A stretch of 64,000 nt of DNA, taken from assembly GCA_964481235.1 (NCBI GenBank), contig CAYZYH010000003.1, positions 12,341 through 76,340 on the forward strand. Direction: 5' to 3'. Within the stretch, counting starts at the first letter, position 1; each line of letters starts with the position of its first letter. This document shows, piece after piece, positions 23,291-44,059 of this stretch. The stretch comes from an uncultured Candidatus Saccharibacteria bacterium (GTDB lineage: Bacteria; Patescibacteriota; Saccharimonadia; CAILAD01; BJGX01). The notes under the pieces are model-generated. The model did not search any database, was not told the DNA's origin, and saw only the letters and a program-made list of their open reading frames with translations. Position numbers and translations under genes: made by a program.

Positions 23291-23315
23291 AGACCTTTAA
23301 GAAAGGTCTTTTTTT
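23291..23315. terminator. rho-independent terminator hairpin (bidirectional form)
   Basis: agaccttt-aaga-aaggtct flanked by an A-run and a T-run; lies just 3' of the - strand tRNA cluster. Confidence 0.5.
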
Positions 23316-23391
23316 GGTGGGTGATGAGGGACTCGAACCCCCGACATCCTCGGTGTAAACGAGACGCTCTAGCCAACTGAGCTAATCACCC
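23315..23391 (-). tRNA. tRNA-Val(TAC)
   Basis: Reverse-complement cloverleaf GGGTGATTAGCTCAGTTGG..; anticodon loop TTTACAC; CCA encoded. Confidence 0.85.
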
Positions 23392-23398
23392 ATGTATT

Positions 23399-23475
23399 TG
23401 GTGCGGGTAGGGAGACTCTAACTCCCGGCCTCATCCTTGGCAAGGATGCGCTCTAAACAACTGAGCTATACCCGC
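23399..23475 (-). tRNA. tRNA-Gly(GCC)
   Basis: Reverse complement GCGGGTATAGCTCAG..; anticodon loop TTGCCAA; CCA encoded. Confidence 0.85.
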
Positions 23476-23676
23476 GCGTCAAAATATTGTTTTAGTTTCT
23501 CGTAAATATAGGTATATTTACTGTCAACCATCACAACTACTTTTCCTTTCAATTCTAATGATTACATTTGAATTGTACCGAACTGAATTGTATTTCGTTC
23601 GTAAAGGAGATTGACTTGCGAAAACCGTAGCATGATATTGGCAATATGATGCGTAGATTGTAGTAATCAATGGACG

Positions 23677-23752
23677 TGGTGGCGAGACTCGGAATCGAAC
23701 CGAGGACACGAGGCTCTTCAAGCCACTGCTCTACCAACTGAGCTATCTCGCC
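23677..23752 (-). tRNA. tRNA-Phe(GAA)
   Basis: Reverse complement GGCGAGATAGCTCAGTTGGTAGAGC..; anticodon loop TTGAAGA; one U-U mismatch in the anticodon stem; CCA encoded. Confidence 0.8.
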
Positions 23753-23973
23753 TCGTCAAAGATATGCTTTTTATTTAACATATAATTAACATGTTAATTA
23801 TCGCACATCTTCTCCTCTCAAAATAGTAAATCTTATTTACTATTTTGGGTTAGGATAAAACAGCTAAAAATGAAATAACGAGAATAATCATAACAGAATC
23901 AACACTAGATTTCCAGCCCTTTCGGGTACTCTAAAAAACAGGTATAATGTGTGAGTTATTTAAGAAATCTTAA

Positions 23974-24047
23974 GGCGCGTTGGCCGAGTGGTTAGGCAAG
24001 GGTCTGCAAAACCCTGTACACCGGTTCAAATCCGGTACGCGCCTCCA
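23974..24047 (+). tRNA. tRNA-Cys(GCA)
   Basis: GGCGCGTTGGCCGAGTGG..; anticodon loop CTGCAAA; CCA encoded. Confidence 0.85.
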
Positions 24048-24061
24048 GTACTTTTATAAAA

Positions 24062-24310
24062 TTAGTTATTAGCTGCCTGATTGCGCCTAACTATCTCTTG
24101 TTCCTTTGCCTCTATAACTGCTGAGTCAGAAATAGTGTGAACACCACTATCGGCAAGTTCTTGGAGTGCTTGGGCTCGCAAAGAATGCTTGGCGTCATTT
24201 TTAGCACGCATCTTATGAAGTTGACCCACAAGTTCTTCATGTTCTGCACTTCTATTAAGTGTGTCTGAACCTTGTGTAATGTGGTCGCCATTGTTGGTTG
24301 GTTCGGTCAT
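24062..24310 (-). CDS. hypothetical small protein (82 aa)
   Basis: AAGGAAAG RBS before the ATG on the - strand; sits between tRNA-Cys and tRNA-Leu. Confidence 0.5.
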   Translation of the reverse strand: MTEPTNNGDHITQGSDTLNRSAEHEELVGQLHKMRAKNDAKHSLRAQALQELADSGVHTISDSAVIEAKEQEIVRRNQAANN

Positions 24311-24376
24311 GGTTTTTGCTTTCCTTGTTTATTGGTTTATTATAAACTAATAAACAAATACTGACAATTTACATAA

Positions 24377-24462
24377 GCGCGGGTGGTGGAATTGGTATAC
24401 ACGACAGACTTAAAATCTGTTGCCCCTAGGGCTTGCGGGTTCGAGTCCCGCCCCGCGCACCA
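24377..24462 (+). tRNA. tRNA-Leu(TAA)
   Basis: Long variable arm; anticodon loop CTTAAAA; GGTTCGAGTCC T-arm; CCA encoded. Confidence 0.85.
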
Positions 24463-24463
24463 A

Positions 24464-25159
24464 ATGTGGTACAATTATTTAATGGAAAATTCAAAACCAA
24501 CGATATCACAGGCAATCTCAGAGGGTTGGCAACTTACAAAATCTAACTACCCAATACTCTTGGGGTCTTTTGCGATACTTATAGGCATTAGTATTGCTTT
24601 TTCTATTGTCGACAATATCACTACTGTGTCTAAAAATAACAATCCTAGTACTACCGTAATGCTATCTCTTGCTTTGGCATCGCTAGTTGCTGCAATTCTA
24701 AGAATAGGCATACAAAATCTTACCTCTATTGGCTTTACACAAATACAACTAAATATTTTAGATAAAAAACCTACAGGTATTGGTTTGCTTTTTAACTCCG
24801 AAAATGTTTTCTGGAGATATTTAGGCACCTCAATTGTTTATGGCTTAATTATTCTAGGTGGTTTGATATTACTTATAGTACCAGGAATAATTTGGGCTCT
24901 TAAGTATCAGTTTGCTCTGCCGCTAGTAATCGATAAAAAAATGACTCTTTCAGAATCGATAAGTAAAAGTGGTCAAATTACCAAAGGCTATAAAGGCTGG
25001 TTGCTTGGTTTTGCATTAGTTCTTGGACTTATAAATATTGCCGGGTTTTTAGCCCTAGGAGTGGGTCTACTCTTTACCATTCCACTTACGGCAATGAGTC
25101 AGATTTGGGTTTATCGCAAACTACTCGGTGTTAGTAATTCAGTAACTACCCCAAATTAG
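24464..25159 (+). CDS. hypothetical polytopic membrane protein
   Basis: ORF-track start (24383) lies inside the tRNA; trimmed to the first ATG after the tRNA. Multiple hydrophobic helices. Confidence 0.5.
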   Translation: MWYNYLMENSKPTISQAISEGWQLTKSNYPILLGSFAILIGISIAFSIVDNITTVSKNNNPSTTVMLSLALASLVAAILRIGIQNLTSIGFTQIQLNILDKKPTGIGLLFNSENVFWRYLGTSIVYGLIILGGLILLIVPGIIWALKYQFALPLVIDKKMTLSESISKSGQITKGYKGWLLGFALVLGLINIAGFLALGVGLLFTIPLTAMSQIWVYRKLLGVSNSVTTPN

Positions 25160-25818: not shown

Positions 25819-26340
25819 TTAGACAGCGAGTTTGTTTATATCTCTGGCAAAATAAAGTTTAACTGTATCTTTACTAAGCCAACCTTTTAAATAAAGATTT
25901 AGGAGAACAAGCCCAGAGATAACAAATATATCTCTACGATCGAAACCGTAACCCTGAGCATCTGCCCACATACTTATATTGTCGTCAATCTGTCCGATTG
26001 ATTCAAAAGCACCGCGTTTATCCACCACACCACTCGAAACAGATGTTTCACAATCATGTGCAAAATTGATTATTTCTAACCTTTTGTCGCTATGATAGTA
26101 GACATCCCTTAACTTCGTTGGCAAAACAAGATCCCAGACCTCACGAATTTCGGCGGCTTTACGAGGCTTAAGCTTTGTTACTGCACAATGCATTATTGAG
26201 CAGCTTCTTGGCCTAGAGGCATCGATAAGTGATATACCAGCTACGTCGTCACCAAGCGACTCAGTGCAAAAGACAGGATGGTTGTCGCAATCTAAGTAAA
26301 TGTCGCCAACCCTGATTTTATTTTTATGCCGGCGTACCAT
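25819..26340 (-). CDS. hypothetical protein (173 aa), member of a local paralogous small-protein family
   Basis: Shares LxDGDIxIxIID-type and CX6C motifs with ORFs at 39248-, 40676-, 41613- and 42672-. Confidence 0.5.
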   Translation of the reverse strand: MVRRHKNKIRVGDIYLDCDNHPVFCTESLGDDVAGISLIDASRPRSCSIMHCAVTKLKPRKAAEIREVWDLVLPTKLRDVYYHSDKRLEIINFAHDCETSVSSGVVDKRGAFESIGQIDDNISMWADAQGYGFDRRDIFVISGLVLLNLYLKGWLSKDTVKLYFARDINKLAV

Positions 26341-35591: not shown

Positions 35592-38500
35592 GTGAGTGTA
35601 AATGTAGACAATCTTAATCCGGTAATAACCAAAGCCCGTAATTCTAAGGGCTTTGTTGATTTTGTGCATTTACACAATCACACCCACTATAGTTTACTAG
35701 ACGGACTACAAAAAGTTCCTACTCTACTTAACTATGTACAAGAACTAGGCCAGACGGCTTGCGCAATTACTGACCATGGTAGCTTGTCTGGTGCGATAGA
35801 ATTTTATAAGTCGTGCAAAGAAAGAGATATTAAGCCTATAATTGGTATTGAAGCATACATAGCACCTAGAACCTATCTAGATAAAAATAGCGCCGAAGAC
35901 CGCAATCCATTTCACCTCATTTTGTTAGCCCAAAATATTACTGGCTATAAAAACCTTATGAAGCTTAGTACTATAGCAAACCTCGAAGGCTTTTATTACA
36001 AACCTCGTATAGATCACGATCTATTAAAAAAACACAATGAAGGTATAATTTGTCTTTCTGGATGTATTGGTGGCGAGGTAGGGTCCCACCTTAACAACGA
36101 CAACTACAAAGAAGCTAAAAAAGTTGCTCAGATCTATAAAGATATATTTGGTCGCGAAAGATATTATTTAGAAATGCAACCCCACCTAGACTGGGAGCCT
36201 CAAGTGAAGGTTAATAATGGCTTAAAAAAGCTCAGTAAAGAACTCGATTTGCAGCTGGTTGTAACTGGTGATGCTCACTATACCAAGCCCGAAGATCACT
36301 ATCCGCACGATATTTTACTTTGCGTACAAACCGGCAGCACCATTGAAGATCCTAATAGATTTAAACTAGACCAAGACCTCAGTATTCATTCTGGTGCCGA
36401 CATGCTAGAAAAATTTAGTGATCATCCAGAAGCAATCGCTAATACTGTTAAAATTGCACAAATGTGTGATTTAGAAATTGAACTAGGTCGCATACTTATA
36501 CCGCGATTTCCAGATTTGCCCGAAGGTGAAACTGAAAGAAGCTACCTCCGTAAATTGGTATTTAGTGGCGCCGCCAATCGATATACTGATATTCCAAGAG
36601 AGGATTTATTAGAAATTACCGAAGACAAGGTGGTGGAGAAATTGCCAAGCAACGTGTTGGAGCGAATTGAGTATGAGCTAGAGGTGATCGCCGATATGGG
36701 TTATGAGGGTTACATGCTTATAGTTGCAGATCTTATTAACTGGAGTAAAAGCCAAGGTATTATTTGTGGACCAGGACGCGGTAGTGCAGCCGGCAGTATC
36801 ATTGCTTATGCTACCAATATTACCGAGATAGATCCATTAAAATACGATTTGCTATTTGAGAGGTTTCTAAACCCAGACCGTATTAGTATGCCAGATATCG
36901 ATATGGATTACGCTGATGACCGTAGAGAAGAAGTAATAAATTATGCTACACAAAAATACGGACAAGATAGGGTAGCGCAAATTATTACTTTCGGCACAAT
37001 GGCAGCTCGCAACGCCGTAAGAGACACTGGTCGAGTATTAGACATGCCTTATGGCGAGGTAGATGCTATCGCTAAGCTCATACCAGCGCCCGTACAAGGT
37101 CGACATATACCACTCGAAAAATCAATCGTTGATAATCCAGAGCTTAAGGCCGAATATCAAACCAACCCCAAAGCCAAACAAGTTATTGATATTGCCACAA
37201 AACTAGAAGGCACTATTAGAAACGCTGGCACACATGCTGCCGGAGTAGTAATTGCTCCAGAAAACTTGGTAGAATACGTACCTTTGGTGCGGGCTAGTAA
37301 GGGTGGTATAGCAACACAATACTCGATGAATCCGGTTGAAGATTTAGGCTTGCTCAAATTCGACTTTCTTGGTCTATCTAACCTTACTATTATAAAAAAC
37401 ACTCTTAGAATTTTAAAAAAAGTATATGACATCGATCTAAAAGTTACCGATATTCCAATTGACGACACTAAGACTTATGAGCTAATGAGTAGAGGAGATA
37501 CGACCGGAGTTTTTCAGCTAGAATCTGCGGGGATGAAACGTTATTTACGCGAGCTCAAGCCTGACAAATTTGAAGACATTGTAGCTATGGGTGCGCTATA
37601 TAGACCCGGTCCTATGCAATGGATAGAAGACTTTATTAATCGTAAGCACAACCCAGATCTTATTGCTTATGGTCATCCCAAAATGCAGGCTGCTCTGCAA
37701 GAGACTTACGGTATAATTGTTTATCAAGAACAGGTAATGCAAATTGCCAAAGATCTTTGTGGTTTTACAGGGGGTCAAGCCGATACTCTAAGAAAAGGTA
37801 TAGGTAAAAAAATACCAGAAGTCTTGGCCAAAATGAAGCAAGAATTTATAGAGGGAGCTATTGAAACTTCTCAAGTAGATCAAAAATTTGTAGAAGATCT
37901 TTGGAAAAGTTTAGAAGATTTTGCTGCGTATAGTTTTAATAAAAGTCATGCTGCTTGTTATGGGCTTATTGCTGTCCAAACAGCCTACCTCAAAGCTCAT
38001 TATCCGGCCGCATTTATGGCTGCCCTTATGACTAGTGATCATGAAAATTTAGACAGAATCGCTATTGAGGTGTCTGAGTGTCGCAAGATGGGGCTCGAGC
38101 TACTCCCCCCAGATATTAACGAAAGTTTTGCAGAATTTGCGGTTGTTCCGGATACCCAAAATATTAGGTTTGGATTGGGGGCGGTAAAAAATGTTGGCCT
38201 TGGCCCAATAGAGAAAATTTTAGAGGCCAGAAGCGAGGGAGGAAAATTCAAAAACTTAGAAGATTTTTGTAGCAGAGTAGAAGCTACCGTAGTGAATAAA
38301 AAGGTCATGGAATCCCTTATAAAGTGTGGTGCTTTTGATGGTCTTGGTGATAGAGATGTACTTTTAAATAATGTAGAAATTATTACGAGTTATGCATCGC
38401 GAGTGCAGAAAAATGCCTTGAGTGGTCAGGTAGATATTTTTGGTAGTATTGGAATGGATCAAGAAAGTCCACCATTAGCACTTGTATCACCAAAAGACAA

Positions 38501-39239
38501 AACCGACCCTCGCACACACCTTATGTGGGAAAGAGAGTTACTCGGGCTGTTTATTAGCTCTCATCCCCTAGATGACTTTAATAATTATCTCACTTCTAAA
38601 ACTCAAAATATAAAAAACTTTAATAAAAGTGACGACTCCAAACCAATTACCGTAGGGGGTATAGTAATAGGTTTACGACAAATATATACTCGTAATAACG
38701 ACCCTATGGCTTTTGTGCAATTAGAGACAATATATGGCGATGTAGAAGTAATAGTATTTCCGAGAGTTTTTGAAAAAGACAAAGCTATTTGGGCACTAGA
38801 CAATGTTTTGGAGGTCAAAGGCAAGATAAATGCACGCGACAGAGATGGTAACCCCACCGACGACTTAAAGGTTATCGCCAACCAAGCTAAATTAATAAAC
38901 CACCAAACCGCCATGCACTTTCCACCACCCAACCAGACAGTTATGGGAGGCATAGAATCTCAAGTAAAAGCAGTAAATAGTGACAAGACTACAGGTATAA
39001 CCCAGATCATCATTACTCTACAATCAGCTACAGAGAGTGAAAAACTTTTGGCTATTAAGAAAACACTACAAGCCCACCCCGGCTCTACTAGTGTGTTGCT
39101 GCATTTTAGTGGCCAAAATCAAAAACTCAAAATACCTACTGGTGTGAAATGTAATGATGATTTCTTGAATAATCTAAACAATATAGTTGGAAAAGATAGT
39201 ATTAAAATTAAAAGAGCCCCAACAAAAGTTGAGGCTTAG
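35592..39239 (+). CDS. dnaE: DNA polymerase III alpha subunit
   Basis: 1215 aa; N-terminal PHP domain (HLHNHTHYSLLDG), polymerase core, OB fold; GTG start. Confidence 0.95.
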   Translation: MSVNVDNLNPVITKARNSKGFVDFVHLHNHTHYSLLDGLQKVPTLLNYVQELGQTACAITDHGSLSGAIEFYKSCKERDIKPIIGIEAYIAPRTYLDKNSAEDRNPFHLILLAQNITGYKNLMKLSTIANLEGFYYKPRIDHDLLKKHNEGIICLSGCIGGEVGSHLNNDNYKEAKKVAQIYKDIFGRERYYLEMQPHLDWEPQVKVNNGLKKLSKELDLQLVVTGDAHYTKPEDHYPHDILLCVQTGSTIEDPNRFKLDQDLSIHSGADMLEKFSDHPEAIANTVKIAQMCDLEIELGRILIPRFPDLPEGETERSYLRKLVFSGAANRYTDIPREDLLEITEDKVVEKLPSNVLERIEYELEVIADMGYEGYMLIVADLINWSKSQGIICGPGRGSAAGSIIAYATNITEIDPLKYDLLFERFLNPDRISMPDIDMDYADDRREEVINYATQKYGQDRVAQIITFGTMAARNAVRDTGRVLDMPYGEVDAIAKLIPAPVQGRHIPLEKSIVDNPELKAEYQTNPKAKQVIDIATKLEGTIRNAGTHAAGVVIAPENLVEYVPLVRASKGGIATQYSMNPVEDLGLLKFDFLGLSNLTIIKNTLRILKKVYDIDLKVTDIPIDDTKTYELMSRGDTTGVFQLESAGMKRYLRELKPDKFEDIVAMGALYRPGPMQWIEDFINRKHNPDLIAYGHPKMQAALQETYGIIVYQEQVMQIAKDLCGFTGGQADTLRKGIGKKIPEVLAKMKQEFIEGAIETSQVDQKFVEDLWKSLEDFAAYSFNKSHAACYGLIAVQTAYLKAHYPAAFMAALMTSDHENLDRIAIEVSECRKMGLELLPPDINESFAEFAVVPDTQNIRFGLGAVKNVGLGPIEKILEARSEGGKFKNLEDFCSRVEATVVNKKVMESLIKCGAFDGLGDRDVLLNNVEIITSYASRVQKNALSGQVDIFGSIGMDQESPPLALVSPKDKTDPRTHLMWERELLGLFISSHPLDDFNNYLTSKTQNIKNFNKSDDSKPITVGGIVIGLRQIYTRNNDPMAFVQLETIYGDVEVIVFPRVFEKDKAIWALDNVLEVKGKINARDRDGNPTDDLKVIANQAKLINHQTAMHFPPPNQTVMGGIESQVKAVNSDKTTGITQIIITLQSATESEKLLAIKKTLQAHPGSTSVLLHFSGQNQKLKIPTGVKCNDDFLNNLNNIVGKDSIKIKRAPTKVEA

Positions 39240-39247
39240 TTATGTGT

Positions 39248-39709
39248 TTAGCAGTTTACAATTCTATATGCTCTCAGCATTTTTAATATTTCATCCGGAT
39301 CAACCACTTCGGTCTCACCGAATCCTTCAATTTCTACACTCTGACGATTAGGAATCAAAGCACTATTCGTGAAGATTTTTTCAAACGCGACTAGATATTG
39401 TACGGTTTGAGAAATGAGTTTAATGTCTATATCTTTGCCTACAGGAAGGTTATATCTTCTAAGCCTTTCCTCCGCAATAACTACAAAAAGCTCACTTACA
39501 ATAATTTGCTTACTTACTACTACCAGATCGTAAGCGGCTATATCACCAGAACCTAGCCAAAAACCATTCGCATTGTACCAATGTGCCTGGGTGATAATGC
39601 GGTTACTTTGTGATCGCCACTGATCTTGTTGAAGGCCAAATGGCGGGGCTACATATAGTTTTCTCTTGGCATCAGCATAAATGCCTTTTACTAATTGTGC
39701 CACTATCAA
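39248..39709 (-). CDS. hypothetical protein (153 aa), local paralog family
   Basis: No overlapping + strand ORF; motifs LGSGDIAAYDLVVV and VGKDIDIKLIS resemble the other - strand small ORFs. Confidence 0.5.
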   Translation of the reverse strand: MIVAQLVKGIYADAKRKLYVAPPFGLQQDQWRSQSNRIITQAHWYNANGFWLGSGDIAAYDLVVVSKQIIVSELFVVIAEERLRRYNLPVGKDIDIKLISQTVQYLVAFEKIFTNSALIPNRQSVEIEGFGETEVVDPDEILKMLRAYRIVNC

Positions 39710-39921
39710 CCTTTCTAAGTAGGTTCCTTCTCTTTTTTAGAGAGCTTCTAAAAACATTAACAAACTTAGTAATATTATTCAAGTGATAATTAGTATTTAT
39801 TGGTACAAATATGTGAAATATCAGTGTATATTGCCTATGTTTCACAGATTAGTACAGATGTGCCCGCTAGGGTGGTTAAACTCTTGCAGTAGTAAATGGT
39901 TTGTGGTACACTGGCTTGGTT

Positions 39922-40605
39922 ATGAATGCAATCGCTACTCTAGAAGCCAACCAAAAAAAGACCAAGTTACCCGAAATTCGTGTAGGGGATACTGTTCGTA
40001 TTCACCAACGTATTAGTGAAGGTAAAAAAAGCCGTATTCAGGTTTTTGAAGGTTTGGTTATTCGCTACCGTAAGACCGGCAGTGTACAGGCTTTTATTAC
40101 AGTTCGTAAAATCGCCTCTGGCGTAGGTGTAGAGAAAAGTTGGTTAGTACATAGCCCAAGCATAGAAAAAATTGTGGTAGTTAAACGTAGCAAGGTGCGT
40201 AGAGCTTTCTTGAGCTACATGCGCGACCGTAGCGGTAAATCTGCTCGCCTTGCTGAGATGGGCTTTGACAAAGAGATCACCAACGAGGCCGACAGCCGTA
40301 CCAAGACTCAAATAGAGGCCGAAGACAAGGCCTCCAAAGAAGAAGCTGAGCAAGCTAAGATAAAAAAAGCAGTAGATGAGTCTGGTGATGCCAGTGCCAA
40401 AGACGATGCTCTAAACGATACAGATACCGAAAGCACTGAAGATATTGCCAAAGAAGAAGACAAACGAGCTGCCAAAGAAGACCCCAACCCAGCCGAAGAC
40501 AATGTGCCAGCAACTGCACCACAAGACGAAAAGATAAACTCTGACGGTAACGATGAACAACGCGAAGCAGCCGAAGAAGCTCAAGAGGGTGTAGACAAGG
40601 AGTAA
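39922..40605 (+). CDS. rplS: 50S ribosomal protein L19 with ~110-aa acidic C-terminal extension
   Basis: The L19 core (..IRVGDTVRIHQRISEGKKSRIQVFEGLVI..) spans ~115 aa, followed by a D/E/K/A-rich low-complexity tail. Confidence 0.85.
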   Translation: MNAIATLEANQKKTKLPEIRVGDTVRIHQRISEGKKSRIQVFEGLVIRYRKTGSVQAFITVRKIASGVGVEKSWLVHSPSIEKIVVVKRSKVRRAFLSYMRDRSGKSARLAEMGFDKEITNEADSRTKTQIEAEDKASKEEAEQAKIKKAVDESGDASAKDDALNDTDTESTEDIAKEEDKRAAKEDPNPAEDNVPATAPQDEKINSDGNDEQREAAEEAQEGVDKE

Positions 40606-40622
40606 ATATCAATAGATAGTTT

Positions 40623-40648
40623 AAAACCCCCGATATCTCGGGGGTTTT
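40623..40648. terminator. bidirectional rho-independent terminator between convergent genes
   Basis: aaaa-cccccga-tatc-tcggggg-tttt. Confidence 0.7.
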
Positions 40649-40675
40649 GTTATTGATTACTTTTACCAAGCCTGC

Positions 40676-41095
40676 TCAATATTTTGGAGTGAATGCCCTG
40701 GCAAGACTAGGGTCAATAATGGTGATTTGAATATCACCATCAGACAGAGCCCACTGCACTCTACTAGCTCTTTCAACACTAGCTCGCGACATGTTCTTGT
40801 ACCCAACGGCGTCAATACATGCCAAACCGCCTCGCAACTCGTCTTCAATTGCCTCGGTAGCGGCATCAGCCTCGGCAAATCGTTTGCCACAGAACGGACA
40901 GTACTGAATGCCTGTGAGCAAAGTTGGGAAATTCTGTCTGCCTTCGGCATTGCTGTTCTGAAATAACTTGCCACCCTCGTGACCATCGACATAGGTGATT
41001 GCGCAATCTTCTGGTTGCGCTAAGCACTCATGAATATGAAGTGACGTATCTTTTTCTGCTAACGATCGCAAAAAACTCATACCTCTAAATTTCAT
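40676..41095 (-). CDS. hypothetical Cys-containing protein (139 aa; may start at the ATG at 41080)
   Basis: CX6C and CPFC pairs (possible Zn ribbon); C-terminal LSDGDIQITIIDPSLAR motif shared with 25819-; visibly higher GC than neighbours. Confidence 0.45.
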   Translation of the reverse strand: MKFRGMSFLRSLAEKDTSLHIHECLAQPEDCAITYVDGHEGGKLFQNSNAEGRQNFPTLLTGIQYCPFCGKRFAEADAATEAIEDELRGGLACIDAVGYKNMSRASVERASRVQWALSDGDIQITIIDPSLARAFTPKY

Positions 41096-41177
41096 TGGTT
41101 TCTCATTTCATCTATGAAGGTGCTATTTACTACTAATTTATAATAACACAAAAACCACTATTAATCAATCCAGACTA

Positions 41178-41205
41178 TTGTCATAATTTGATATAGTGGT
41201 ATAAT
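41178..41205 (+). promoter_or_regulatory. sigma70-like promoter (TTGTCA-N16-TATAAT) upstream of 41243
   Basis: Match to the consensus hexamers with 16-nt spacing, ~40 nt before the RBS. Confidence 0.45.
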
Positions 41206-41242
41206 AAGTTCAAATCTGTTGAAGTTTAGTAAAGGAGCTACA

Positions 41243-41536
41243 ATGGACGCACCAGAAAAGATTAGTACCGATCCAACCGGGGTACCAATTAGACCTAGTA
41301 TAGAAGGATGGTTATTCTCATCACTATGGGGGTCAGTATTTAGCTGTTATTACCTAGAAGGCAGTAATGTATATCATTTGGTATATGTAGATGAAGAACT
41401 AATGAGTCAAAAACCAATTGGTAAAGCCAAAGATATACCAGAAGCCAGAGAAGTGGCTATGGCTTATGCAGAAACTTTTTGGCAATCTGGCGCTACTGCA
41501 CTACACCAAAAGAAATGGTGTACACCCAAACCATGA
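41243..41536 (+). CDS. hypothetical protein (97 aa)
   Basis: AGGAG RBS 8 nt upstream of the ATG at 41243 (ORF-track start 41219 trimmed). Confidence 0.5.
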   Translation: MDAPEKISTDPTGVPIRPSIEGWLFSSLWGSVFSCYYLEGSNVYHLVYVDEELMSQKPIGKAKDIPEAREVAMAYAETFWQSGATALHQKKWCTPKP

Positions 41537-41561
41537 CACCACATGCAAAGATAAATTAAAT

Positions 41562-41590
41562 CCCCCGCCAATTTGGCGGGGGATAATTTT
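41562..41590. terminator. hairpin terminator between convergent genes
   Basis: cccccgcc-aattt-ggcggggg followed by an AT/T-rich tract. Confidence 0.55.
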
Positions 41591-41612
41591 GTCAATTAAA
41601 AGCAGATTTTAG

Positions 41613-41939
41613 CTACTGTGTATTATTAAAACCCTCAGTCTCTAACATATTAAGAAGAAACTGTATATCCGTGTTTCCTCCAGCAAAAACTAGCCTAGAT
41701 ATATTATTATCACCCTGACTAAAAGCTACTACTATCTTGGAATGATCAGCGCTTTCTAAGTGGTAAATACCAGACTCCAAAGCTGTTCTCAAGATCTCAT
41801 GGGCGGAATGGATTGGTAACAACTCATTTGAAGTTCTTAAACTCCTCTGCGGCCTATTGGCTTCTATTCTAGTAAATTCAATAAGCCTGAACTGAATAAC
41901 GTCACTCGGTTTTACCACAAAATGTGTGTTACTTGCCAT
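41613..41939 (-). CDS. hypothetical protein (108 aa), paralog of 42672-
   Basis: Shares ..SDV.., ..LES..KVVV.F.. and C-terminal G.xDIxxLL motifs with the ORF at 42672..43043. Confidence 0.5.
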   Translation of the reverse strand: MASNTHFVVKPSDVIQFRLIEFTRIEANRPQRSLRTSNELLPIHSAHEILRTALESGIYHLESADHSKIVVAFSQGDNNISRLVFAGGNTDIQFLLNMLETEGFNNTQ

Positions 41940-42024
41940 AGCTATCCTCCTATAGGTGCTGTCGGCTAGTATAAACTAAAATTTGTTGTTTGACAATATC
42001 TAGTTGCAGTATAATAGAGCGGTA

Positions 42025-42636
42025 ATGAAAAAATCCCTGGCCAGCTATAAATATGAAACTAATTTGCATAAGCAAGGTTGTCTATTTGTGGCTGGTATAG
42101 ATGAAGTGGGACGAGGTTGTTTGGCAGGGCCACTTGTTGCTGCGGCAGTTGTATTACCAAGCGACCAGACCCTTGAGTTATTCGATTCTAAGTCTATTAG
42201 TAAAACCAAACGAGAAAACATTGCCAAACAAGTTAAAGAAGTCTCATTGGGCTATGGGCTAGGCTGGGTAACGAATAATGAAATAGACAAGTATGGGTTG
42301 GCCTGGTCTCTACAAGAATCATATATAAGAGCACTAGTAGACTTAAACCTAGAGGTTAGCAAGGTTATATTAGACGGTAATGTGAATTATTTAGAGGAAT
42401 TTAATATTTGTGAAACGTGTATAAAGGGCGATAAAAAAGTTGCTTGTGTGGCAGCCGCATCAGTGCTTGCCAAGGTAACGCGAGATAACCATATGGCAAG
42501 TGTATCTGGTAAATATCCAGAATATAGATATGAAACAAATGCGGGCTATGGTACTGTTTCACACCGAGAAGCTATCTATAAACATGGTATGAGTGATCTG
42601 CATCGCAAAAGTTTTTGTAGAAACATCGTGCAATAA
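42025..42636 (+). CDS. rnhB: ribonuclease HII
   Basis: AGIDEVGRGCLAGPLV catalytic DE.GRG motif; ~204 aa. Confidence 0.85.
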   Translation: MKKSLASYKYETNLHKQGCLFVAGIDEVGRGCLAGPLVAAAVVLPSDQTLELFDSKSISKTKRENIAKQVKEVSLGYGLGWVTNNEIDKYGLAWSLQESYIRALVDLNLEVSKVILDGNVNYLEEFNICETCIKGDKKVACVAAASVLAKVTRDNHMASVSGKYPEYRYETNAGYGTVSHREAIYKHGMSDLHRKSFCRNIVQ

Positions 42637-42671
42637 AAAATCCTGTCCGCTTAAACTAACGGACAGGATGC

Positions 42672-43043
42672 TTATCTACCCACTATTACCCTATTAAGTA
42701 TTATCTCAATAAGTTCGTTGCCAGGTACTGGTGCACTATTAACAGAGTCTAGAACTCTATCTAGATCAACACCCATTTGGTGTAGCTCTACGATATTGCG
42801 TAAGTAAGCCATATCTTCTATGTAGCCCTCAAAGGTAGTTGTAGCTTTGGCGCCACAAGGCAAAACAAAACAAACCACTACTTTTTCCAGGCTCGACTCT
42901 AGAGATACGGCGCCCTCTTTGAGTAACGTAATCATTAACAGATGAGACTCATATGGGTTGAGGTATTCAAATTCTTCTAAAAATACCCCGGTAATCTGTC
43001 TAGTCACATATACATCACTATGAGTACAAAGTATTGTATCCAC
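42672..43043 (-). CDS. hypothetical protein (123 aa), paralog of 41613-
   Basis: See 41613..41939. Confidence 0.5.
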   Translation of the reverse strand: MDTILCTHSDVYVTRQITGVFLEEFEYLNPYESHLLMITLLKEGAVSLESSLEKVVVCFVLPCGAKATTTFEGYIEDMAYLRNIVELHQMGVDLDRVLDSVNSAPVPGNELIEIILNRVIVGR

Positions 43044-43156
43044 TTCTTTACCCCCTGTTGTAGGTGCAATTTATAAATTTAACTATACTCTTAAGATTTT
43101 ATCAATGCAAAATATTTAAGCTTGCAATACTTAGGGTAAAATTTCAGTATGGATAT

Positions 43157-43519
43157 ATGAAGAACACCACAGCGATTGGTAATAGCGCTGAAACACTAGC
43201 CTCTGAATACTTGGAGGGTAAAGGTTATAAGATAGTAGAACGCAATTACAAAGATAAGTTTTGCGAGATAGATATTGTCTGTACTCACCAAGAATTTATA
43301 GTTTTTGTAGAAGTTAAGTATCGATCTAGAGCCGACTACGGCGGAGCAGTAGGAGCAATTACGCCAAATAAGTTTAGACGCATACAAAAAGCTGCCGAAT
43401 ATTACTTGAGCCAACATGAGGTATGCAGTAGTTTACAGCCTAGGCTCGATGTAATAACGGTAGTAGGAGATATGAACAAACCAGCCATTACACACATAGA
43501 AGATTGCGAACTATATTGA
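43157..43519 (+). CDS. yraN: YraN-family (UPF0102) endonuclease
   Basis: GE..A..YL...GY.I..RN......EIDIV pattern; ~120 aa; downstream of rnhB as in many bacteria. Confidence 0.7.
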   Translation: MKNTTAIGNSAETLASEYLEGKGYKIVERNYKDKFCEIDIVCTHQEFIVFVEVKYRSRADYGGAVGAITPNKFRRIQKAAEYYLSQHEVCSSLQPRLDVITVVGDMNKPAITHIEDCELY

Positions 43520-43579
43520 CAAAATATACAAGAATCATTAAACTGTAGCAGTTATTGTACCTTTTAGAAAAGAGCTGAA

Positions 43580-44059
43580 GTGTCGCTCAAAACTCCCGCT
43601 AAAGATGCCTACCTACAAATTAGCGCCAAAACTCCCTTAGCTCAAAAAAAGTCTGTACTTTGGTTTATGAAGTCACTTGTTACACTTGCAATAGTTGCAT
43701 TGATTCTAGGTGTATTTCGGGTTTACGACATGCAGTCGGATAATTTTATGACTGTATTTAGTGTGGTCGTTTTTGTGATAATGCCACCGCTTTTTATCAT
43801 ATTGTTTGCTGAACTAAGCTATATGAAAAAGGTTAGAAAAGCTGAGTATGCCTATTGTAAAGAATATGCAGAGAATCTATTGGGTCGCGAAGTAACGGTT
43901 GGCTACAAACAAGATGGTAGAGTGACTTTTAAAGTTAATGGAGTGGTATTGTGTTTCTACCCCGAGACCGAAGAGATTACTTTCTTTGATGGTAGAAAAA
44001 TGAATGAAGAAACACTTGCTCTTTACTATGAGTTGAGTAATCAACAAGACCAGCAGTAA
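43580..44059 (+). CDS. hypothetical membrane protein (159 aa)
   Basis: Two TM helices; GTG start. Confidence 0.45.
   Translation: MSLKTPAKDAYLQISAKTPLAQKKSVLWFMKSLVTLAIVALILGVFRVYDMQSDNFMTVFSVVVFVIMPPLFIILFAELSYMKKVRKAEYAYCKEYAENLLGREVTVGYKQDGRVTFKVNGVVLCFYPETEEITFFDGRKMNEETLALYYELSNQQDQQ

What the first reader, a model, noticed from the sequence alone, without database searches (positions are those of the whole stretch)
39248..43043. Family of small, mutually similar hypothetical proteins on the - strand scattered among + strand housekeeping genes
The ORFs at 39248..39709, 40676..41095, 41613..41939 and 42672..43043 (all - strand), plus 25819..26340 (- strand, 13 kb away), share short motifs. 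One is an L-[GS]-D-G-D-I-x-I-x-I-I-D-x-S-x-x-R-like beta-strand motif (LGDDVAGISLIDASRPR, LSDGDIQITIIDPSLAR, LGSGDIAAYDLVVV, VGKDIDIKLISQ, MGVDLDRVLDSV, GNTDIQFLLNM). Two of them share CX6C...VDG segments. 41613 and 42672 are clearly related over most of their length. They interrupt conserved neighbourhoods (rplS..rnhB-yraN) in antisense orientation, and at least 40676..41095 has visibly higher GC. This looks like an expanding lineage-specific gene family or cassette system rather than random ORFs.
Basis: partly seen in the sequence, partly recalled or inferred. Interest (0 to 1): 0.55.

Follow-up and report, generated by a model that had tools for sequence, protein, structure and literature searches.

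The report
Unrelated small accessory genes, not one family
The small opposite-strand ORFs are real, selected protein genes, but they belong to at least five unrelated, lineage-restricted families that were slipped as stand-alone units between housekeeping genes of a Saccharibacteria-like genome; this is ordinary accessory-gene turnover, not one expanding family.

Summary
All five ORFs exist as described. The claimed shared motif is no better than chance. Only 41613 (C) and 42672 (D) are related, and weakly. Profile comparisons give under 2% probability for every other pair.

The ORFs are nevertheless real genes. In a sister genome, A, B, D and an unlisted + strand ORF, F (41219..41536), have gap-free orthologues with dN/dS of 0.11-0.15, like rnhB. 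E has six homologues, and in the five relatives' contigs examined it lies between LemA and an M48 peptidase.

Each has promoter-like and ribosome-binding sequences and shares a two-way terminator hairpin with the facing gene. The region reads dnaE> <A rplS> <B F> <C rnhB> <D yraN>. One distant relative has a compact rplS-rnhB-yraN cluster. The two sister genomes differ by clean presence or absence of whole gene units, including C.

B has foreign base composition. A belongs to an undescribed ~150-residue family found in scattered metagenome contigs and one tailed-phage contig. E's N-terminal domain also occurs in a 330-kb contig of the viral collection. B, C/D and F have no homologues among billions of proteins.

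Biochemical function is unknown. The pattern is known; interest is low to moderate.

The parts
39248..39709 (-). Gene A (151-153 aa). Divergent member of an undescribed ~150-residue family with the motif FGLRCGQM...GWYN..GEKLGWGDL. Faces dnaE tail to tail.
   Evidence: Sister orthologue is 83% identical, dN/dS 0.13, substitutions by codon position 18/8/53, no gaps. Related to a phage ORF at 30% identity, E 3e-9. The family profile finds 15 metagenome loci. No Pfam or PHROG match.
39215..39236 (-). Terminator-like hairpin downstream of A, lying inside the 3' end of dnaE
   Evidence: The region holds 14 terminator-like sites against 3.6 +/- 1.9 in shuffles.
40622..40649 (.). Terminator-like hairpin between rplS and B, scored on the + strand; a palindromic stem lying where both genes end
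40676..41095 (-). Gene B (134-139 aa; start at 41095 or 41080). Conserved cysteines in CX6C and CPFC arrangements. Foreign base composition.
   Evidence: Only one other cluster in 5.8 billion proteins, the sister orthologue at 78%. dN/dS 0.11. GC 0.47 and GC3 0.43, more than 5 SD above the window's genes. No family or PDB match.
41096..41218 (.). Region between B and F, which are transcribed away from each other, with promoter-like sites on both strands
   Evidence: + strand 41178-41205 (TTGTCA-16-TATAAT with TG); - strand 41184-41157 and 41168-41140
41219..41536 (+). Gene F (97-105 aa). A lineage-restricted orphan on the + strand, not listed in the finding but part of the same inserted set.
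   Evidence: Sister orthologue 87% identical, dN/dS 0.15. No family, PDB or viral match.
41560..41584 (.). Two-way terminator hairpin shared by F and C; conserved in the sister genome
41599..41995 (.). 397-nt segment carrying gene C with its own promoter-like site and ribosome-binding site. The sister genome has 6 nt here.
   Evidence: blastn blocks and junction alignment. No relic of C in the sister.
41613..41939 (-). Gene C (108 aa), a distant paralogue of D
   Evidence: Promoter-like site TTGTCA-17-TATACT at 41996-41968. GGAGG lies upstream of the ATG. Identical ORF in metagenome contigs from five sequencing runs. No homologue other than D among 1.84 billion representatives.
42640..42669 (-). 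Terminator-like hairpin between rnhB and D, scored on the - strand; a palindromic stem lying where both genes end
42672..43043 (-). Gene D (123 aa)
43076..43111 (-). Promoter-like sites upstream of D
   Evidence: 9 of 12 matches; weak
25819..26340 (-). Gene E (173 aa), unrelated to A-D. N-terminal SH3/Tudor-like barrel with invariant C18, H21, C25, C47 and C52, followed by a helical C-terminal half.
35592..39239 (+). Backbone gene dnaE
   Evidence: Pfam families listed; 96% identical to the sister genome
39922..40605 (+). Backbone gene rplS (L19), with a long acidic C-terminal tail
42004..42636 (+). Backbone gene rnhB
43157..43519 (+). Backbone gene yraN (UPF0102). The start at 43157 matches the sister genome.

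Best explanation
The ORFs are genuine, independently transcribed protein-coding accessory genes of at least five unrelated, narrowly distributed families: A, B, C/D, E and the unlisted F. Each sits as a self-contained unit (promoter, ribosome-binding site, ORF) in a gap between housekeeping genes of a Saccharibacteria-like genome. Each is oriented tail to tail with the upstream housekeeping gene, and the two share a two-way terminator hairpin, so the essential genes are not disturbed. The cluster arose by repeated single-gene insertion into what was probably a compact rplS-rnhB-yraN neighbourhood. It keeps turning over: whole units are present or absent between sister species.

At least some units came in horizontally. 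B has foreign composition. The A and E families have members in contigs of the viral collection, and the extra A-family copy in the sister genome is foreign in composition and closer to the phage and metagenome homologues than to A.

Shown: coding status and purifying selection; non-homology between families; indel structure; phage and metagenome relatives of A and E; B's composition.

Inferred: insertion rather than ancestral presence; horizontal or phage origin as the general source; working promoters and terminators.

The products have no strongly hydrophobic segment typical of a membrane helix (maximum 19-residue hydropathy 1.84 or less), so they are probably soluble. No catalytic family matches. 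My guess, at low confidence, is that they act by binding partners in conflict with phages or host bacteria, or in regulation.
For: Real genes. dN/dS is 0.11-0.15 for A, B, D and F, against 0.14 for rnhB. Substitutions concentrate at third codon positions. The annotated frame is the only open one in both species, and the orthologues align without gaps. E has pN 0.18 against pS 0.64 and a conserved position.

Unrelated families..

Narrow distribution. A and B each have only themselves and the sister orthologue in 5.8 billion proteins. The C/D profile finds only C and D among 1.84 billion representatives. Distant Saccharibacteria rnhB loci have no homologues. One of them (L011) has a compact rplS-rnhB-yraN cluster.

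Turnover. blastn blocks break exactly at the gaps between genes. C is present only in the window. Genes of 116, 83, 152 and 69 aa are present only in the sister, with no relics in the window.

Stand-alone units. Terminator-like hairpins are enriched (14 against 3.6 +/- 1.9) and lie between each tail-to-tail pair. Promoter-like sites lie upstream of C, F, B and D.

Horizontal or phage link. B has GC3 0.43 and the sister's extra A-family copy 0.425, against a background of 0.312 +/- 0.022. A myovirus contig (tail sheath, tail tube and baseplate hub) carries an A-family gene that is 42% identical to the sister's extra copy, E 5e-29. Fifteen metagenome loci carry the family in unrelated contexts with no conserved partner gene. 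E's N-terminal domain occurs in a 330-kb contig of the viral collection.

Literature. Gain and loss of single genes on a syntenic backbone is described for Saccharibacteria (PMC7427843). Single-gene transfer and genomic islands are described for Patescibacteria (PMC12455944).
Against: No biochemical function could be assigned. There are no Pfam, NCBIfam, PHROG, PADLOC or PDB sequence matches, and fold searches were uninformative.

A, C, D, E and F have native base composition, so horizontal origin is not shown for them. B, C/D and F have no viral relatives, and GenBank phages hold no relative of the sister's A-family copy, B or E.

Whether the indels between the sister species are gains or losses cannot be decided without a closer outgroup. 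The outgroups used are distant (rnhB 34-44% identical).

Promoter-like sites are not enriched over shuffles (18 against 14.9 +/- 3.9).

C has no orthologue, so its coding status rests on its weak paralogy to D, its intact ORF and its signals.
Confidence: 0.75

Rival explanations
1. One reading: the five ORFs are members of one expanding, lineage-specific protein family or cassette system sharing an L-[GS]-D-G-D-I...I-I-D-x-S-like motif.
For: The quoted strings exist. C and D are paralogues. B and E both have a CX6C pair.
Against: Every pair except C-D scores within shuffled expectation. The B-E stretch with 7 of 17 identities occurs in 13% of shuffles, and it sits at opposite ends of the two proteins. 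Profile-profile probabilities are at most 1.6%. Family profiles find no further copies in the window. No flanking repeats or recombination sites were found.
Confidence: 0.04
2. The ORFs are chance open frames on the strand opposite to, or between, real genes, and encode nothing.
For: They are short, have no database families, and the ORF list is purely mechanical. C lacks an orthologue.
Against: dN/dS is 0.11-0.15 only in the annotated frame, third-position substitutions dominate, and the orthologues align without gaps or stops over 105-153 codons at dS 0.5-1.4. E is conserved in six clusters down to 34% identity. A has homologues in 15 metagenome loci.
Confidence: 0.03
3. The orphans without any homologue (C/D, F and perhaps B) arose de novo from non-coding sequence between genes, or from antisense transcripts, within this lineage, rather than by horizontal transfer.
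For: There are no homologues among 1.84 to 5.8 billion proteins. C, D and F have native GC and GC3. They lie in gaps between genes, next to existing terminators.
Against: They are already 105-139 aa long, and D gives a partly ordered model. They are under purifying selection as strong as on rnhB. B has foreign composition. A and E, in identical settings, demonstrably have outside homologues, including in the viral collection. The unit present in only one species leaves no non-coding precursor in the other: 6 nt against 397 nt.
Confidence: 0.15
4. They form a defence, anti-defence or toxin-antitoxin islet whose members work together, for example B with F, which are transcribed away from each other.
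For: The genes are small, clustered and turn over quickly. The A and E families have relatives in the viral collection. The position between core genes resembles known integration hotspots.
Against: There are no credible PADLOC hits (one weak match for C, E 0.017) and no toxin or antitoxin domains. The genes are separate single-gene units with their own terminators rather than operons. Gene content differs one gene at a time between sister genomes. A-family genes have no conserved partner elsewhere.
Confidence: 0.1

Closest known systems
Accessory-gene islets at integration hotspots between core genes, including phage 'moron'-type units (a single gene with its own promoter and terminator). This comparison rests on my general knowledge.
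   Same: These are small genes with their own signals, placed between conserved core genes and variable between close relatives. Some have atypical composition (B and the sister's extra A-family copy). Some have relatives in the viral collection (A and E families).
   Different: No prophage, integrase, tRNA target or flanking repeats were found. The islets are single genes spread over four consecutive gaps in a strictly alternating tail-to-tail pattern. Most members have native composition and no detectable donor.
Single-gene gain and loss on a syntenic backbone in Saccharibacteria (McLean et al. 2020, PMC7427843), and horizontally transferred single genes and islands in Patescibacteria (PMC12455944)
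   Same: The same phylum-level setting and the same pattern: conserved gene order with individual genes gained or lost, many of them hypothetical.
   Different: Those studies do not, in the passages I read, describe these particular families or this rplS-rnhB-yraN locus.
RecA C-terminal domain, hairpin 'GAWYSYKGEKIGQGKAN' (PDB 1aa3, 3cmu)
   Same: The most conserved motif of the A family, 'GWYN..GEKLGWGDLS', aligns to this hairpin over 24-25 residues.
   Different: The single-domain E-value is 0.26. The low E-values for 3cmu, 3cmt and 3cmv arise only because those chains are artificial fusions of 4-6 RecA copies. Nothing outside the motif is similar. This is a lead, not homology.
Tudor / KOW / SH3-like small beta-barrels (for example the TDRD3 Tudor domain, Spt5 KOW domains and the UvrD/PcrA C-terminal Tudor domain)
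   Different: Sequence identity is about 8-15%. E carries four invariant cysteines and a histidine that were not examined in the matched domains, plus a helical C-terminal half with no clear match. The fold class is generic.

Membership tests
   Only C-D exceeds the shuffles. Profile-profile probability is at most 1.6% for all family pairs.
   The B-E match of 7 in 17 residues occurs in 13% of shuffles. It lies at residues 117-133 of B but 29-45 of E.
C/D paralogue pair | Significant sequence similarity between C and D | tested here: met
   BLASTP E 2e-5; 0 of 5000 shuffles reach the score; reciprocal best hits. Caveat: a profile built from D alone gives C an E-value of 1.3.
Protein-coding genes under selection | dN/dS well below 1 in the annotated frame only, with the frame preserved in a relative | tested here: met
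   A 0.13, B 0.11, D 0.11, F 0.15. E has pN 0.18 against pS 0.64. C could not be tested because it has no orthologue.
Moron-like / hotspot accessory gene unit | Own promoter and terminator flanking a single ORF | tested here: inconclusive
   Terminator-like hairpins are enriched and correctly placed. Promoter-like sites are present but not enriched over shuffles. No expression data.
Moron-like / hotspot accessory gene unit | Presence or absence varies between close relatives, with clean junctions between core genes | tested here: met
Moron-like / hotspot accessory gene unit | Homologues in phage genomes, or foreign composition | tested here: inconclusive
   Met for A, for E's N-terminal domain and for B's composition. 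Not met for C/D and F. GenBank phages gave no hits.
Integron or other site-specific cassette array | Recombination sites or repeats flanking each cassette, and a nearby integrase | tested here: not met
   No flanking direct or inverted repeats in 39000-43700. No integrase among the neighbouring proteins scanned with Pfam; the remaining neighbours carry housekeeping Pfam families in the precomputed lists.
Toxin-antitoxin or known anti-phage defence system | Match to known toxin, antitoxin or defence protein models; a two-gene operon | tested here: not met
   PADLOC, Pfam and NCBIfam give nothing credible. The genes are separate single-gene units.
RecA C-terminal domain (for the A family) | Significant sequence or profile similarity across the domain | tested here: inconclusive
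   Only a 24-25-residue motif matches, with single-domain E 0.26.
Tudor/SH3-like barrel (E, N-terminal domain) | Five-stranded small barrel that superposes on known members | tested here: inconclusive

The most novel reading that the evidence does not exclude
The rplS-rnhB-yraN neighbourhood of this Saccharibacteria lineage is a dedicated landing zone. Small phage-derived genes are repeatedly captured there behind two-way terminators and kept because they act in phage-host or epibiont-host conflict. Within it, the undescribed A family, shared with a myovirus and scattered bacteria, would mimic the RecA C-terminal hairpin to modulate recombination or the SOS-like response.
Probability: 0.08. 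Interest if true: 0.6.

Novelty: new member of a known kind. Interest (0 to 1): 0.3.

Why it matters
It corrects a plausible but wrong 'gene family' call. It also shows, with selection tests, that the small hypothetical ORFs in this reduced-genome bacterium are real, maintained genes.

It documents a compact example of accessory-gene turnover among essential genes in an ultra-small genome. Two uncharacterised families now have members in the viral collection: the A family, and the four-cysteine SH3-like domain of E. Both are tractable targets for anyone studying phage-host conflict in Saccharibacteria. None of this changes current understanding: single-gene gain and loss on a syntenic backbone is already described for this phylum.

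Tried and rejected
- Common family or motif: rejected by shuffle tests and profile-profile comparison.
- Spurious ORFs: rejected by dN/dS and frame controls.
- Known domains: Pfam, PHROGs, PADLOC and NCBIfam gave nothing credible for A-F or for the sister's extra genes. PDB sequence searches gave nothing except the RecA motif lead.
- Fold assignment of E: only a generic SH3/Tudor barrel; nothing significant against viral structures.
- P0007, a 1958-aa repeat protein hit by the C/D profile: rejected as summed weak matches to nine repeats.
- Mobile-element signatures (target duplications, inverted repeats): none.
- RNA families: only tRNAs in the window.
- Conserved partner gene for the A family: none.
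- GenBank phages: no hits for the sister's A-family copy, B or E. The viral collection gave no hits for B, C/D, F or the sister's 83-aa and 116-aa genes.
The afdb50 library was unavailable.


Full report
**What is in the sequence**

The window is about 39% GC. Nearly all its genes are housekeeping genes on the + strand. Relatives of its RNase HII come mostly from Saccharibacteria genomes assembled from metagenomes. I label the five ORFs of the finding A (39248..39709), B (40676..41095), C (41613..41939), D (42672..43043) and E (25819..26340). All exist on the - strand, and the quoted peptide strings are present. A sixth small ORF, F (41219..41536, + strand), lies among them and belongs to the same story.

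**Are they one family? No.**

- Smith-Waterman scores against 300 shuffles put every pair within chance (z from -1.4 to 2.5), except C-D at z 7.5.
- For C-D, BLASTP gives 31% identity over 62 residues, E 2e-5. None of 5000 shuffles reaches the score, and the two are reciprocal best hits among 87 window segments of similar length.
- The C-D relation is nevertheless weak. A profile built from D and its orthologue alone finds C only at E 1.3 among 3620 segments.
A match that good occurs in 13% of shuffled pairs, and it lies at opposite ends of the two proteins.
- Profile-profile comparison of the A, B, C/D, E and F families, and of the extra genes in the sister genome, gives at most 1.6% probability for every pair.
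- Family profiles find no further copies in six-frame translations of the window.

**Are they genes? Yes.**

B's only homologue in 5.8 billion proteins is 78% identical. It led to a sister genome, GCA_964552475.1, fetched as locus L012. That genome shares the backbone: DnaE 96%, L19 92%, RNase HII 77% and YraN 67% identical.

| Gene | Identity to sister orthologue | dN/dS |
|---|---|---|
| A | 83% | 0.13 |
| B | 78% | 0.11 |
| D | 85% | 0.11 |
| F | 87% | 0.15 |
| rnhB (for comparison) | 77% | 0.14 |
| dnaE (for comparison) | 96% | 0.03 |

The orthologues align without gaps. Substitutions pile up at third codon positions (for A: 18, 8 and 53 at positions 1, 2 and 3). The annotated frame is the only one without internal stops (5-23 stop-containing codon columns in each of the other five frames). 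It also has the lowest dN/dS; four of the other frames give 0.7-3.1, and the codon-aligned antisense frame about 0.2.

E has six homologues at 34-72% identity. In the five relatives' contigs examined, as in the window, it lies between LemA and an M48 peptidase on the opposite strand. Its pN is 0.18 against pS 0.64.

C has no orthologue. Its case rests on the paralogy with D, an intact and identical ORF in contigs from five sequencing runs, a GGAGG ribosome-binding site, and a promoter-like site (TTGTCA-17-TATACT).

**Anatomy**

The region reads dnaE> <A rplS> <B F> <C rnhB> <D yraN>. That is four consecutive tail-to-tail pairs. A GC-rich hairpin lies between the two stop codons of each pair: 39215-39236, 40622-40649, 41560-41584 and 42640-42669. 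Terminator-like sites number 14, against 3.6 +/- 1.9 in shuffles. Promoter-like sites precede C, F, B and D, although such sites are not enriched overall. No direct or inverted repeats flank the units. None of the products has a strongly hydrophobic segment: the maximum 19-residue hydropathy is 1.84 or less, against 2.28 for the sister's 116-aa protein, which looks membrane-bound.

**Evolution**

Distant Saccharibacteria have no homologues of A-F around rnhB. One of them (L011) has a compact rplS-rnhB-yraN cluster, with rnhB and yraN overlapping; a second (L008) has the same order but carries its own antisense ORF between rplS and rnhB. The small genes are therefore best read as insertions in the lineage of the window and its sister.

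Between the two sister genomes, the aligned DNA blocks break exactly at the gaps between genes:

- C, with its promoter (397 nt), is replaced by 6 nt in the sister.
- The sister has an extra 116-aa gene, probably a membrane protein, between yraN and D.
- It has an extra 83-aa gene between rplS and B.
- It has a 152-aa and a 69-aa gene between rplS and A.
- None of these leaves a relic in the window.

C and D are far more diverged (31% identical) than D is from its orthologue (85%). C is therefore old, or was imported. It is not a recent local duplicate.

**Origins**

B's GC is 0.47 and its third-position GC 0.43. That is more than 5 SD above 31 long genes of the window (0.312 +/- 0.022, maximum 0.361). 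Its orthologue, and the sister's 152-aa and 116-aa genes, are similar. A, C, D, E and F look native.

The sister's 152-aa gene is a paralogue of A: 26% identity, E 5e-9. A profile of the A family found one contig in the viral collection. It is a myovirus fragment with tail sheath, tail tube and baseplate hub genes. Its A-family ORF is 42% identical to the sister's paralogue (E 5e-29) and 30% identical to A (E 3e-9).

The same profile found 15 metagenome loci. Their GC ranges from 41 to 62%. Their neighbours are unrelated: alanine racemase and FtsQ, a P-type ATPase, an IS30-type transposase, glycosyltransferases. No partner gene is conserved among them. The family start, MAQLTKGMYG, matches A's MIVAQLVKGIY. 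The 196-aa version called in the sister genome is therefore probably over-extended.

The family has no Pfam or PHROG model. Its only PDB resemblance is a 24-25-residue match of its core motif to the RecA C-terminal hairpin, GaWYSYKGEKIGQG. The single-domain E-value is 0.26. The low E-values on 3cmu, 3cmt and 3cmv arise because those chains are fusions of several RecA copies.

E's N-terminal domain is 56% identical to a 94-aa ORF in a 330-kb contig of the viral collection. B, C/D and F have no relatives in the viral collection. GenBank phages hold none for the sister's A-family copy, B or E.

**Structure**

**Interpretation**

The interpretation as one expanding family or cassette system is wrong.

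The best explanation is ordinary accessory-gene turnover. Independent single-gene units from at least five unrelated families were inserted into terminator-bearing gaps between essential genes. They are kept by selection and are exchanged or lost one unit at a time. Some are demonstrably linked to phages or foreign in composition.

The pattern fits published descriptions of Saccharibacteria and Patescibacteria genome dynamics (PMC7427843, PMC12455944). Biochemical functions remain unknown. A role in conflict with phages or host bacteria, or in regulation through partner binding, is a low-confidence inference.

Noticed in passing
It is under purifying selection (dN/dS 0.15) and has no homologues outside the sister genome.
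   Followed up: yes
window 40271-40605 (3' part of rplS): Ribosomal protein L19 carries a C-terminal extension of about 115 residues, very acidic and rich in Lys, Glu and Ala. It is conserved in the sister genome (92% overall). Distant Saccharibacteria L19 ORFs are also long (176-181 aa), whereas the Pfam L19 domain is about 111 residues.
   Followed up: partly
window 43580-44059 (+): A 159-aa protein with hydrophobic stretches that look membrane-spanning on reading the sequence (not scanned) lies downstream of yraN. It has no credible Pfam match, is 82% identical in the sister genome (dN/dS 0.18), and is absent from the distant Saccharibacteria loci examined. It is another lineage-restricted gene, this time on the + strand.
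   Followed up: partly
L012 4898-5356, 5466-5675, 3663-3914 and 1128-1478 (sister genome GCA_964552475.1): Four extra small genes occupy the same gaps in the sister genome. The 152-aa one is an A-family member with foreign GC3 (0.425). It is closer to the phage and metagenome homologues (42-50%) than to the resident A gene (26%), which suggests a separate acquisition next to an older, diverged copy.
   Followed up: yes
L021/L022 4911-5492 (IMGVR_UViG_3300033144_003933): In the myovirus contig, the A-family gene and a metallophosphoesterase gene lie on the strand opposite to the tail sheath and tail tube genes. This placement among structural genes is typical of a phage accessory gene.
   Followed up: partly
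window 39560-39600 (A residues ~40-56) and the A8 alignment: The A-family core motif, GWYN..GEKLGWGDLS, resembles the conserved RecA C-terminal hairpin GAWYSYKGEKIGQGKAN. It is not significant on its own (E 0.26).
   Followed up: partly
L023 4977-5261 (IMGVR_UViG_3300028840_008160, 330 kb): A 94-aa ORF carries only the four-cysteine SH3-like N-terminal domain of E (56% identical). It lies in a long run of same-strand small genes of unknown function; two of five neighbouring ORFs scanned matched phage protein families, consistent with a jumbo phage. P0013 likewise shares only this domain, so it behaves as a mobile module.
   Followed up: partly
L008 9505-9915 (-): A distant Saccharibacteria genome has its own unrelated 136-aa antisense ORF, with no Pfam match, in the gap between rplS and rnhB. 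The same gap may have been colonised independently. I did not test whether this ORF is a real gene.
   Followed up: no
window 41990-42030: A TTGACA-14 nt-TATAAT arrangement overlaps the TTG start listed for rnhB (42004). The true start may be the ATG at 42026 (MKKSLASY...). In the sister genome, the gene caller extends rnhB upstream through the terminator hairpin (233 aa), which is probably an over-call.
   Followed up: no
window 23315-24462: A cluster of five tRNA genes (Val, Gly and Phe on the - strand; Cys and Leu on the + strand). The tRNA-Leu at 24377-24462 overlaps the listed GTG start of the ORF 24383..25159, so that ORF's real start must lie further downstream.
   Followed up: no
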